NCBI RefSeq assembly: GCF_009914755.1
Contig: NC_060926.1
Source: the human T2T-CHM13v2.0 reference genome, Homo sapiens
DNA length: 64,000 nt
Strand: one strand, 5' to 3'
A program made the translations under genes and the position numbers. Every line of letters begins with the position of its first letter. Position 1 is the stretch's first letter. The notes beneath the pieces are model-generated. The model did no database searches and was not told where the DNA came from. It saw only the letters and a program-made list of their open reading frames with translations. Shown here in pieces: positions 60,025-63,111 of the stretch.

Positions 60025-61275
60025 GTCTAGACCTAACCACCATTTTGTAGAAGATATGGGGGACAAAAAAGCACTTTAAGCAAACCATTGGAATTCAATC
60101 AACAAAACTCAGAATGTGGACACTGTAGAACAAATGACCAGATTTCTTCAACAGTTATATGACAAGGGAATTATGAAAATTAGATTAAAAAGGGAATAAT
60201 GAAAATTAGCAGTGTATGAGCTTTTTTGACTCTGATCTGAACAGTCAACCCAAATAGGAGATTTGACTACTGATTTTTTGAAGCCATTAGGGAGTTAACT
60301 ATTAATTATTTTGGGTATACTGGTTCATACAGACTCTCTCATCTCAGCCCACCAGAGAGGACAGCTCTGCTCTCCATAATGTCCACAAATGACAGACTGA
60401 GTAGCTTTACTTTCAAAATCTTCCTCACAAATTCCTGATTATTTGTCCTCCAGAGATGTGTATAGATTATCCCAGTAAGTGCTGAGGAAAAGAGACAACA
60501 TCACAACATCAACTATGACCATCCTCAGAGAATTAAGGATAAAGTAACACTTAGTAGCCATGGGAAAGTTATCAGTGACTGTGCCAATATGATGACTAGA
60601 TTCAGTAATAACACCCAGTAACTTCCCACTTTATTTTTTCACTTCCTTTTTTTTTTTTCCTGGAGTCCTCAGGCATTAATCTTGTTCTCCTTCACTGTAA
60701 CAACCATTTATTCTTCCTCCCATAACTTTTCCCTCAGTCATTTGTAAATAAAACTTGGGTACTCAGTTGTTTTTCACATCAGAACAAGCGAATAAGCCCA
60801 TACACTATTTCCTAAGCCTTCATTTGTAGTGATATACAGAGGGCTCAGATCTTTTTTAATGAAAAAAAAGTGAGGTTACTAAAAACAAATACAAATCACT
60901 GAGTTCCCTTTCATTTGTGCCTGGGTCTATTCTTTTATTGATGCAAGTCCTTTAGTTTTTCAAGCATATTACTACCACAAATGTGGTCCATAAACAGACA
61001 AGTCCAGAAACTGAGAGTAAGAATTTTGATATACTTGTATAGCAGTTTGGCAGAGTAATTATATGTCTTTTAAATCTAATAAAAATGGGGCTTATATTTT
61101 ATATTTTACGTTTAAATATTTACTTTTCTAGTAATTCATTTTTATTATATTAATTCATGATGGCTTAGAACTTAAAAAAAACTGTTCCAAAAAGAAGCAA
61201 ATATTTTTAACCCTAGTGAATAATGTCTGTCAAAATCTGGTTGATAGACCTTCTGCTTCTGAAACAGGTGCTTGT

Positions 61276-62124
61276 CAAGCTATGATTGCTACGGTTCATT
61301 TAAATCAGAGAAAAGGGGGAGATGCAGGGACACCCCCTGAAACTATTGCTACAGAATAAAAGATGAAATGATCCTGATTATTGAAAATACAAAATTGCAT
61401 GCAGGATCGTGTAAAGACAATGCCAGGTTGGACTGCCAGAATGAGCCAACAGTGTGTGATGTGCTTCCCCCTGCAGAGAGCCTATGAATGGACGTGCAGT
61501 CAAGGAGGTTTCGCATCACCAAGATTCCTATCCCAGAAAAGCAGATGTTCATAGCTCTGGGAATGGAATGCGACCCTTGTGGAGAGCCTATAAACAGACG
61601 CATGAGGGGCGCCTGTCCATATGGATAAGATAGGGCTATAAACGCCCTCATCTTGCCACGGCTCTTCTAGGCCTCTTTAGGGTTAAGGCATACTCCCTTC
61701 TGAGAATTTCTGGTCTAACCAGTTGTCTAGCTTCACATCCTGTTTCTATGGATTGTTTGTAACCAGCTTTTGCTGCAAGTGTTACTGCTGATTAATATCT
61801 TGCTAATCATAGGTTATGGAAAGACTGTGTTTCTGTTTTAAGGCTCTGTTAGAAATTATTGATGCACACACTATATTGTAAATTCTTATCTCTGTATACT
61901 GTACTTCTGCATACAGATGTTATGTTAAAGAATTACTTCATCCCCATGTGACCATCTCACCTCATAATCAAATGACCCTAAATCCCTCACTAACCTACCC
62001 CTGCCCTCACTAAACTTAATAATAAATTCTGGTATATCCAGTGCATTGGCAGCACCACGGGACCAGAAGGTGGTGACCCCCCTGGACCCAGCTTTCACAA
62101 AAAAAAAAAAAAAAAAAAAAAAAA
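61276..62124 (+). mobile_element. Processed (L1-mobilised) HERV-K-type fragment: env tail, PPT, MER11D-like U3-R, poly(A)
   Basis: PPT agagaaaagggggaga at 61307-61322, LTR starting TG at 61323, AATAAA at 62021-62026, A26 at 62099-62124, 12-bp direct repeat ACAGGTGCTTGT at 61264-61275 and 62126-62137. Confidence 0.85.
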
Positions 62125-62125
62125 C

Positions 62126-62200
62126 ACAGGTGCTTGTTACAAATGCAGATTCCTGGGCCCCACCTAGGACCAACTGAGAAAAGATTTGAGAATCTGTTTA
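62126..62200. mobile_element. MER5-like fragment (insertion target)
   Basis: gtgcttgttacaaatgcagattcctgggccccacc...gagaatctg. Confidence 0.65.
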
Positions 62201-62204
62201 TTTT

Positions 62205-63111
62205 TTACTTCAACATTTACTTATTTCTTAATTGACAATTAAAAATGGTATATTTTGATTGTGGGGTGGCTAAATCAAGCAAATTAACATATGCATTATC
62301 TTATTTTTGTCATAGCACACTTAAAATCTACTATCTTAGCAATTTTTTTTTTTTTTGAGATGGAGTCTTGTTCTGTCGCCCAGGCTGGAGTGAAGTGGTG
62401 TGATCTCAGCTCACTGCAACCTCCACCCCCGCTGGGGTTCAAGTCAAGTGATTCTCCTGCCTCAGCCTCCCAAGTAGCTAGGATTACAGGTACCCACCAT
62501 CATGCCTGGAGAATTTTTATACTTTTAGTAGAGACGGGGTTTTGCCATGTTGGCCAGGCTAGTATCGAACTTCTGAACTCAGGTGATCCACCCGCCTCGG
62601 CTGCCCAAAGTGCTGAGATTACAGGCATGAGCCACCGCTCCCGGCAGCAATTTTCAAAAATACATTATATTGTTTAGATATAGTCACTATATTGTAAAAT
62701 AGATCACTTGAACTTCTTCCTCCTTTCTAACTGAAAATTTTGTGTGCTTTGACCAATATGACCTCAACCTCCCTGACTTCAGGTCCTGGTAACCACCATT
62801 CTATTCTCTACTTCTATGAGTTTAACTTTGTTAGCTTCCACATATAAGCGAGATCCTGTGGTATTTGTCTATCTGTGCCTGGTTTATTTCACTTAACATA
62901 ATGCCCTCCAAGGTTATCCATGTTGTCACAAATGGTAAGATTTCTTTCTTTCTATGGCTGAATAATACTCCACTGTGTATATACCACATTTTCTTTATTC
63001 ATTCATGCATTGATGGACACTTAGGCTGTTGGCATATCTTAGCTATTATGAATAATGCAATGAACATGAGAGTACAGACATTGCTTAGATATACCGATTT
63101 CATTTGCTTTA
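62205..63111 (-). mobile_element. L1MA/MB 3' region, host to AluS and HSMAR2
   Basis: ctggtaaccaccattctattctctacttctatgag, tgcctggtttatttcacttaacataatg, gatggacacttagg. Confidence 0.85.
62343..62645 (-). mobile_element. AluS
   Basis: Full antisense dimer. TSD agcaatttt at 62338-62346 and 62646-62654. Confidence 0.92.

What the first reader, a model, noticed from the sequence alone, without database searches (positions are those of the whole stretch)
61264..62137. HERV-K-type (MER11D/HML-7-like) RNA retroposed by L1: a SINE-R-like processed element that looks like a solo LTR
Seen: the insert begins 47 bp before the LTR with an env-tail-like frame QAMIATVHLNQRKGGD overlapping a polypurine tract. 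It continues through the LTR from TG (61323), ends at ...cagctttcac, and is followed by 26 A and a perfect 12-bp direct repeat (ACAGGTGCTTGT), apparently splitting a MER5. Known: integrase-made solo LTRs have TG...CA ends, a U5 region, a 4-6-bp TSD and no PPT or poly(A). 5' truncation, poly(A) and a long TSD are hallmarks of L1 retrotransposition. L1-processed ERV copies are established for HERV-W, the SINE-R part of SVA is a HERV-K env-plus-LTR piece, and HML env ends in a similar RKGG motif. From memory the MER11D consensus continues about 100 bp beyond this point. Inference: a proviral mRNA 3' end mobilised in trans, possibly one of an under-recognised family, placing a full U3 enhancer/promoter 17 kb upstream of PID1.
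Basis: partly seen in the sequence, partly recalled or inferred. Interest (0 to 1): 0.8.

Follow-up and report, generated by a model that had tools for sequence, protein, structure and literature searches.

The report
L1-copied HERV-K HML-7 LTR fragment
The tail end of an ancient retrovirus's RNA (the last bit of its envelope gene plus most of its LTR) was pasted here by the LINE-1 copying machinery instead of by the virus itself, a rare but already known kind of event that seems not to have been described for this virus group.

Summary
Window 61276-62125 is 47 bp of env tail and polypurine tract, then 776 bp of LTR from its TG, then A26. It is bracketed by a perfect 12-bp direct repeat that occurs nowhere else in the window.

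All 29 other fetched copies of this LTR continue about 98 bp past the base where this copy turns into poly(A). The missing U5 is therefore real.

Normal copies carry 6-bp repeats. The family is HERV-K(HML-7)/MER11D, because eight proviral hits fall in the published HML-7 loci.

Three MER5-like paralogues align straight across the modelled empty site. A genome census of the R end found 172 sites, and only two are followed by poly(A): this one and a shorter copy on chr13. These two share no rare substitutions, and the LTR tree is a star.

Verdict: this is a sporadic, 5'-truncated LINE-1-made retrocopy of an HML-7 transcript. It is not a solo LTR and not a SINE-like lineage. It maps the HML-7 poly(A) site.

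The kind is known from HERV-W, HERV-H and one HML-2 locus. It appears unreported for HML-7. Any regulatory effect on PID1 is untested.

The parts
61264..61275 (+). 5' copy of the 12-bp target-site duplication (ACAGGTGCTTGT). Its last two bases (TG) also match the source sequence just upstream of the insert, so the truncation point is ambiguous by about 2 nt.
   Evidence: Four proviral hits start at query 10 instead of 13.
61276..61322 (+). Last 47 bp of HML-7 internal sequence: the end of the env cytoplasmic tail (QAMIATVHLNQRKGG) overlapping the polypurine tract. This is the 5'-truncation point of the retrocopy.
   Evidence: 8 proviral 3' LTR loci carry the same 47 bp and continue upstream in shared env sequence. 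The upstream ORF pieces of L011 hit Pfam GP41 (1.1e-23) and HERV-K_env_2 (1.7e-14).
61323..62098 (+). MER11D-type LTR, U3 plus R only (776 bp, no large indel compared with other copies of 772-778 bp). The env stop codon TAA lies at 61357-61359 inside U3.
   Evidence: 94-96% identity to 39 other copies. Solo copies begin at the same TG.
62021..62026 (+). The only canonical AATAAA in the last 200 bp of the LTR, 72 nt before the poly(A) addition point.
   Evidence: It is kept in 27 of 29 other copies at 70-72 nt.
62099..62124 (+). Poly(A) tail, 26 uninterrupted A. It replaces the roughly 98-bp U5 found in all other copies.
62125..62125 (+). A single C between the tail and the repeat, either a later A-to-C change or an untemplated base.
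62126..62137 (+). 3' copy of the 12-bp target-site duplication.
61206..61263 (.). Left half of the old MER5-like repeat that was split by the insertion.
   Evidence: Paralogues L043, L044 and L045 align from here across the junction.
62138..62200 (.). Right half of the same split repeat.

Best explanation
An RNA transcribed from an HERV-K(HML-7) provirus, ending at the poly(A) site of its 3' LTR, was reverse-transcribed into this site by the LINE-1 machinery (target-primed reverse transcription).

The proposed steps are these. A nick in the bottom strand at the left edge of ACAGGTGCTTGT primed cDNA synthesis on the poly(A) tail. Synthesis stopped early, 47 nt upstream of the LTR. Repair of the staggered break duplicated 12 bp.

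The product is env tail + PPT + U3 + R + A(n). It looks like a solo LTR but lacks U5 and was never handled by retroviral integrase.

Shown: the anatomy, the missing U5, the duplication, the contiguous target, the family identity, and a second copy ending at the same base.

Inferred: that LINE-1 did it, that the RNA was a proviral transcript mobilised in trans, and the age. The age is at most roughly 25 My, from an end branch of 0.025.
For: - The 12-bp perfect repeat is unique in the window.
- An A26 tail starts exactly where 29 of 29 other copies continue into about 98 bp of U5.
- U5 begins with a GT-rich run (TGTGTGTGT) within about 15 nt of that base, and an AATAAA lies upstream in 27 of 29 copies. 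This fits a true cleavage site.
- A second copy, on chr13, starts inside U3 and ends at the same site (CAC+T) with A23.
- Integrase-made copies have 6-bp repeats. I read these by eye in L008, L012, L015, L016, L017, L023 and L027.
- The 47 bp upstream are the env end of proviruses, so the template had internal sequence next to its LTR.
- Three MER5-like paralogues align across the modelled empty site with one copy of the repeat.
- The same mechanism is documented for HERV-W, HERV-H and one HML-2 locus (passages of PMC5016936 and of PMC3590776).
Against: - The inferred nick site resembles the LINE-1 endonuclease consensus only loosely. The consensus TTTT/AA is recalled. The site is CTGT/TT with an exact 12-bp repeat, or GTTT/CA if the C at 62125 was once an A.
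- The AATAAA is 72 nt from the tail, far beyond the usual 10-30 nt. The stretch between them folds no better than shuffles (z -0.18).
- An uninterrupted A26 is long for an insertion that may be 10-25 My old.
- No source provirus was found. The best identity is 96% and the tree is a star.
- The chr13 sibling has no significant target duplication (891 of 2000 shuffles scored as well).
- No outgroup primate genome was available to show the empty site.
Confidence: 0.88

Rival explanations
1. Orphan 3' transduction or read-through. The retroposed RNA was not a proviral transcript. It started at a LINE-1, SVA or host promoter lying inside or upstream of an HML-7 provirus, ran on, and used the 3' LTR poly(A) site. 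Severe 5' truncation then left only the last 823 nt. This is still LINE-1-made, but in cis or from a chimeric RNA.
For: The product would be identical after truncation. Nothing tells the 5' end of the template. LINE-1 prefers its own RNA (established knowledge).
Against: In six of the eight proviral loci inspected (L003-L006, L010, L011), one search aligns about 1.5 kb upstream of the 3' LTR to L011 itself (L011 being the reference row), broken only by a roughly 200-bp gap. The other two are truncated at 390 bp (L002) and 160 bp (L009). No LINE-1 was looked for directly there, and 15 of the 23 published proviruses were not inspected. No non-HML-7 sequence lies between the repeat and the env tail.
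Confidence: 0.08
2. An ordinary integrase-made provirus or solo LTR that later lost its U5 and everything upstream of the last 47 bp of env by deletions. On this view the A-run and the 12-bp repeat are coincidental.
For: Truncated HML-7 elements made of an LTR plus a few hundred bp of env do exist, for example L002/4q32.1 and L009/7q36.2.
Against: Those truncated elements keep U5. Here the break falls at the same base as in the chr13 copy and is followed by A26. The 12-mer flanks the insert exactly and occurs nowhere else in 64 kb. The flanks are contiguous in paralogues. No 6-bp repeat is present.
Confidence: 0.02
3. A member of a self-propagating SINE-R-like lineage: a master U3-R element repeatedly copied by LINE-1, as the SINE-R part of SVA is.
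For: The anatomy (env end + U3-R + poly(A)) is that of SINE-R (recalled). A second copy exists.
Against: Only 2 of 172 R ends carry poly(A). The two copies have different 5' ends and share 0 rare states over 518 columns. They are not supported sisters.
Confidence: 0.02

Closest known systems
HERV-W processed pseudogenes (LINE-1-made; Pavlicek 2002 and Costas 2002 as cited in PMC5016936; review PMC5537654)
   Same: The 3' LTR is cut to U3-R. There is a poly(A) tail, a long target duplication and frequent 5' truncation (passage of PMC5016936).
   Different: HERV-W is a gamma-like group with well over a hundred such copies. Here a beta-like HML-7 group has 2 of 172. This copy is so truncated that only 47 bp of internal sequence remain.
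HERV-K(HML-2) retrotransposed rec-like mRNA at 2q32.1 (Schmitt et al. 2013, PMC3590776)
   Same: A HERV-K-supergroup RNA copied by LINE-1, with a 13-nt target duplication. Its poly(A) stretch is about 90 bp downstream of the LTR poly(A) signal (passage), which compares with the 72 nt found here.
   Different: That copy comes from a different HML group and a spliced mRNA, and is not a near-bare LTR. It was reported as the first for HML-2.
SINE-R module of SVA (HML-2 env end plus LTR; recalled, not checked in a paper here)
   Same: The same kind of piece: env 3' end + U3 + R ending at the LTR poly(A) site, moved by LINE-1.
   Different: There is no VNTR, Alu-like or hexamer part. The group is HML-7, not HML-2. 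There is no amplifying lineage.
MER11D solitary LTRs (about 160 listed by Grandi et al. 2021, PMC8156875)
   Same: The same LTR family, 94-96% identical over U3-R.
   Different: Solitary LTRs are about 874-897 bp with U5 and 6-bp repeats, and they arise by LTR-LTR recombination. This copy has env tail, no U5, poly(A) and a 12-bp repeat. Neither this locus nor the chr13 one appears among the chr2 and chr13 rows of that paper's Supplementary File S1. The coordinate offset of about 0.48 Mb was estimated from a neighbouring listed copy seen.

Membership tests
LINE-1-mediated retrocopy (processed pseudogene type) | Ends in a poly(A) tail placed at the RNA's own polyadenylation site | tested here: met
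   A26 begins where 29 of 29 other copies go on into U5. A second copy ends at the same site. A GT-rich element follows the site in U5.
LINE-1-mediated retrocopy (processed pseudogene type) | Target-site duplication of roughly 7-20 bp flanking insert plus tail | tested here: met
   A 12-bp perfect repeat, unique in 64 kb, with 0 of 100 shuffles giving any match.
LINE-1-mediated retrocopy (processed pseudogene type) | Colinear with the RNA, often 5'-truncated, no promoter-side flank of the source | tested here: met
   The insert starts 47 bp before the LTR, inside env, and is colinear with proviral copies.
LINE-1-mediated retrocopy (processed pseudogene type) | Insertion at a LINE-1 endonuclease motif (TTTT/AA-like; consensus recalled) | tested here: inconclusive
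   The bottom strand reads ...CCTGT/TTCAGA, or ...CTGTTT/CAGA if 62125 was once an A. It is T-rich but a poor match.
LINE-1-mediated retrocopy (processed pseudogene type) | Empty orthologous or ancestral site with one copy of the duplicated bases | tested here: inconclusive
   Only a surrogate was possible. 3 of 3 MER5-like paralogues align across the modelled junction with one copy. No other primate genome is held.
HERV-K(HML-7) / MER11D | LTR and internal sequence match the loci published as HML-7 | tested here: met
   The 8 hits with internal sequence lie on chr 1, 2, 4, 6, 7, 11, 15 and X. They correspond to loci 1q43, 2q11.2, 4q32.1, 6q22.31, 7q36.2, 11p12, 15q24.3 and Xq22.3 of Table 1 in PMC8156875. 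Strands agree for the five rows whose strand was visible: 4q32.1, 6q22.31, 7q36.2, 11p12 and 15q24.3. T2T and hg38 coordinates are close but not identical.
HERV-K(HML-7) / MER11D | Alignment to the Dfam MER11D and HERVK11D consensus | not testable with these tools
   No Dfam or Repbase library is held. The measured LTR length of about 874 bp equals the published 897 bp minus the recurrent 23-bp deletion. This is an arithmetic inference only.
HERV-K(HML-7) / MER11D | Betaretrovirus-type env next to the LTR | tested here: met
   Pfam GP41 at 1.1e-23 and HERV-K_env_2 at 1.7e-14 on L011 upstream ORF pieces.
Integrase-made solitary LTR | Complete U3-R-U5 from the terminal TG to the LTR's 3' end | tested here: not met
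   The last roughly 98 bp (U5) are absent.
Integrase-made solitary LTR | Short (6-bp in this family) target duplication directly at both LTR ends; no internal sequence; no poly(A) | tested here: not met
   Family copies show 6-bp repeats. This copy has 12 bp, 47 bp of env/PPT and A26.
SVA / SINE-R composite retrotransposon | Hexamer, Alu-like and VNTR modules 5' of the SINE-R part; HML-2 origin | tested here: not met
   The whole insert between the repeats is HML-7 sequence. There is no tandem-repeat module.

The most novel reading that the evidence does not exclude
LINE-1 retroposition of LTR-terminated RNAs may be a general, under-counted route by which intact U3 promoter/enhancer modules of class II HERVs were scattered independently of integrase, and possibly after the viruses lost infectivity. 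On this reading such U3-R-poly(A) copies are routinely filed as solitary LTRs. They would also offer a genome-wide way to map the true poly(A) sites (R/U5 borders) of extinct retroviruses.

For HML-7 the two copies place that site 72 nt downstream of the only AAUAAA. That hints at an unusual, HERV-K-wide long-range poly(A) signal arrangement, since about 90 bp was reported for HML-2.
Probability: 0.2. Interest if true: 0.55.

Novelty: new member of a known kind. Interest (0 to 1): 0.3.

Why it matters
- It corrects an annotation. This is not a recombination scar of a provirus that once sat here, so counts and datings of HML-7 integrations that treat every lone LTR as an integration are slightly off.
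- It adds HML-7 to the short list of HERV groups with LINE-1-made copies. One review abstract calls HERV-W the sole such group (PMC5537654). HERV-H and one HML-2 locus were already exceptions (PMC3590776).
- It gives the first sequence-based mapping of the HML-7 polyadenylation site and R/U5 border that I could find.
- Unlike ordinary processed pseudogenes, the copy carries a complete U3. MER11D elements bind GATA3 and bear enhancer-like chromatin in human trophoblast stem cells (PMC10113160, passages). A regulatory effect 17 kb upstream of PID1 is therefore possible, but it is entirely untested.

Tried and rejected
- **Third retrocopy on chr6 (L034).** Rejected. It is only 73-77% identical and belongs to a related LTR family. 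That family shares the R end to the same base but has a different U5.
- **C18 hit (L040).** It has no similarity to the LTR and is a chance match.
- **RNA structure between AAUAAA and the cleavage site.** The MFE is -20.3 against a shuffle mean of -19.75, z -0.18. No support.
- **Target duplication for the chr13 copy.** The best local match is 13 of 18 with a gap. 891 of 2000 shuffles scored as well, and the match is not flush with the junctions. Not shown.
- **Inverted or extra HML-7 segments next to the chr13 copy.** None found.
- **Source provirus.** The ML tree of 31 rows is a star, with 1 starred branch of 27. The window shares at most 2 rare states with any row. No source was identified. 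Only the 30 best-scoring loci out of 241 candidates were used, so 15 of the 23 published proviruses were not compared.
- **Literature not reachable.** Pavlicek et al. 2002 could not be read because it is not held. What it says about groups other than HERV-W is known to me only through citing papers.
- **Claim of no prior report for HML-7.** This rests on searches, and on passages of PMC8156875. In that paper 'processed' occurs only in the reference list, and 'polyadenylation' does not occur.

Full report
**Observation**

A perfect 12-mer, ACAGGTGCTTGT, lies at 61264-61275 and again at 62126-62137 (family D5). These are its only two occurrences in the 64-kb window on either strand, and none of 100 shuffles gave any match.

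Between the two copies lie, in order:
- 47 bp (61276-61322) that end in a purine run
- an LTR that opens with TG at 61323 and runs to ...CAGCTTTCAC at 62098
- 26 uninterrupted A (62099-62124)
- a single C (62125)

**Is U5 really missing?**

A DNA search of the window's own assembly gave 241 candidates, of which 40 were scored. Every one of the 39 other long matches stops at query position 832-835, which is the base before the A-run.

In the 29 other loci that were fetched, the sequence after that base is not flank. It is shared sequence, in 29 of 29. The shared extension is 89-101 bp in 27 of 29 rows. The reference row L013 and L030 ran into flank.

The full LTR is therefore about 874 bp, and the window copy lacks its last roughly 98 bp. 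Solo copies of the family start at the same TG. They carry 6-bp direct repeats at their two ends, which I read by eye in L008, L012, L015, L016, L017, L023 and L027. This differs from the 12 bp seen here.

**What are the first 47 bp?**

Eight hits (L002-L006, L009-L011) include these 47 bp and continue upstream in sequence shared among them. In the frame that gives QAMIATVHLNQRKGGD in the window, seven of the eight read as the end of a long env-like frame. L010 was missed by my string search. The frame runs on into the LTR and stops there. In the window the stop is TAA at 61357-61359.

Two unaltered ORF pieces upstream of the LTR in L011 match Pfam GP41 (1.1e-23) and HERV-K_env_2 (1.7e-14).

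**Family**

No Dfam library is held, so the name rests on position. The eight proviral hits lie on chr 1, 2, 4, 6, 7, 11, 15 and X. They correspond to loci 1q43, 2q11.2, 4q32.1, 6q22.31, 7q36.2, 11p12, 15q24.3 and Xq22.3 in Table 1 of Grandi et al. 2021 (PMC8156875; passages and table text seen). Strands agree for the five rows whose strand was visible (4q32.1, 6q22.31, 7q36.2, 11p12, 15q24.3).

That paper uses MER11D-HERVK11D-MER11D as the reference. It gives 897 bp for the LTR and notes a recurrent 23-bp LTR deletion. 897 minus 23 is the 874 bp measured here, which is an arithmetic inference.

**Target site**

The right flank finds three paralogous copies of an old repeat. I recall it as MER5, but the name was not tested. 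When the window's left flank, one copy of the 12-mer and the right flank are laid together by a script, all three paralogues align across the junction. They extend into the left flank and carry a single copy of the duplicated bases. The aligned spans are L043 33-122, L044 45-110 and L045 4-133 of 133, with the duplication at 59-70.

This is a surrogate for the empty site. No other primate genome was available.

**How many such copies exist?**

- A pattern of the R end plus nine A, allowing up to 3 mismatches, hits the genome twice (reversed-pattern control 0): the window and C13:100509658-683.
- A census of the 24-base R end found 172 sites (control 0).
- A pattern that rejects the normal U5 start left nine sites: the window, the chr13 copy, five ordinary copies with a mutated U5 start, one chance hit with no LTR similarity (L040), and L034 on chr6.
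- L034 is only 73-77% identical. It belongs to a related LTR family that shares the R end up to the very same base and then has a different U5.

So 2 of 172 R ends are polyadenylated.

The chr13 copy begins inside U3 (query 315), ends at CAC+T and carries A23. Its target duplication is not demonstrable.

The two copies share no rare states over 518 columns. They are not supported sisters in a tree that is essentially a star, with 31 rows and 1 of 27 inner branches starred. They are independent events, not a SINE-like lineage.

**The poly(A) site**

Two independent copies ending at the same place map the HML-7 cleavage site. The U5 that normally follows begins with a GT-rich run. The only canonical AATAAA lies 72 nt upstream (62021-62026) and is kept in 27 of 29 copies.

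That distance is unusually long. The intervening RNA folds no better than shuffles, so how the signal works is unexplained. Schmitt et al. 2013 noted about 90 bp between signal and poly(A) stretch in an HML-2 retrocopy (PMC3590776, passage).

**Mechanism**

The combination points to target-primed reverse transcription by LINE-1 acting on a transcript that ended at the 3' LTR of a provirus. The features are a tail at the RNA's own end, loss of U5, 5' truncation, a 12-bp duplication and an intact split target. The template had env next to its LTR, so it was not a solitary LTR.

The inferred nick site is T-rich but a poor match to the recalled TTTT/AA consensus. Two bases of possible microhomology (TG) sit at the 5' junction (hits starting at query 10).

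The end branch is 0.025 substitutions per site, against a median of 0.032 for the other rows. PMC8156875 uses 0.2%/nt/My for LTR-LTR divergence (passage). Half of that rate, applied to one lineage, gives an upper bound near 25 My. This is the epoch in which the paper places most HML-7 activity (abstract).

I cannot exclude that the RNA began at a LINE-1, SVA or host promoter upstream of the LTR (orphan transduction or read-through). After truncation the products are identical.

**Comparison with what is known**

- LINE-1-made copies are well described for HERV-W (PMC5016936, passages). The abstract of PMC5537654 calls W the sole HERV group so mobilised.
- Schmitt et al. cite HERV-H and describe one HML-2 locus as the first for that group.
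- The HML-7 survey treats its roughly 160 solitary LTRs as recombination products. It mentions 'processed' only in its reference list.
- Its Supplementary File S1 has seven chr2 rows and four chr13 rows, and none is at either locus. The offset between assemblies was estimated from a listed neighbour that also appears.
- Four full-text searches turned up no HML-7 case.

The finding is thus a new member of a known kind.

**Function**

The copy keeps a complete U3 without large indels (776 bp against 772-778 in other rows). MER11D elements bind GATA3 and carry enhancer-like chromatin in human trophoblast stem cells (PMC10113160, passages). That paper does not mention PID1. Whether this copy does anything 17.4 kb upstream of PID1 is untested.

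Noticed in passing
L002 (G000:C4:163605100-163608923, minus strand; published locus 4q32.1): This truncated element has about 390 bp of env plus a full LTR with U5. It has ATATGG directly at both of its ends. Further out there is a direct repeat of about 29 bp (CTTAAA(A)GTATTTAATATTGATATT...) on both sides, and the host flank repeats the first 9 bases of the env fragment. This is not a LINE-1 signature, since there is no poly(A). It may be a DNA-level rearrangement.
   Followed up: partly
window 62021-62098, and the same stretch in L002-L030: The only AATAAA lies 70-72 nt before the mapped poly(A) site and is conserved in 27 of 29 copies. No stable fold brings the two together (z -0.18). It may double as a TATA-like element. 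The start of R is not known.
   Followed up: partly
L034 (G000:C6:38534252-38537281), around locus position 1490-1540: A related but distinct LTR family (73-77% identity) keeps the 21 bases before the HML-7 poly(A) site almost unchanged and diverges from the very next base. This suggests the R end is conserved across related HERV-K LTR families.
   Followed up: no
L028 and L029 (G000:C23:148193743-148194519 plus strand and C23:147818370-147819146 minus strand): Two chrX copies are identical over the LTR and over at least 70 bp of flank on each side, in opposite orientation and about 375 kb apart. This points to a recent inverted segmental duplication rather than two integrations.
   Followed up: no
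L007 (G000:C14:64744979-64745957) and G000:C10:52430018-52430901: Each full LTR is directly preceded by a second partial copy of its own first 90-207 bp (query 60-266 and 60-150), which is a tandem partial LTR duplication.
   Followed up: no
window 62345-62650: A T-run followed by GAGATGGAGTCT...GGCTCACTGCAACCTCC reads as an Alu in reverse orientation, about 200 bp downstream of the insert. It was recognised by eye and the name is recalled.
   Followed up: no
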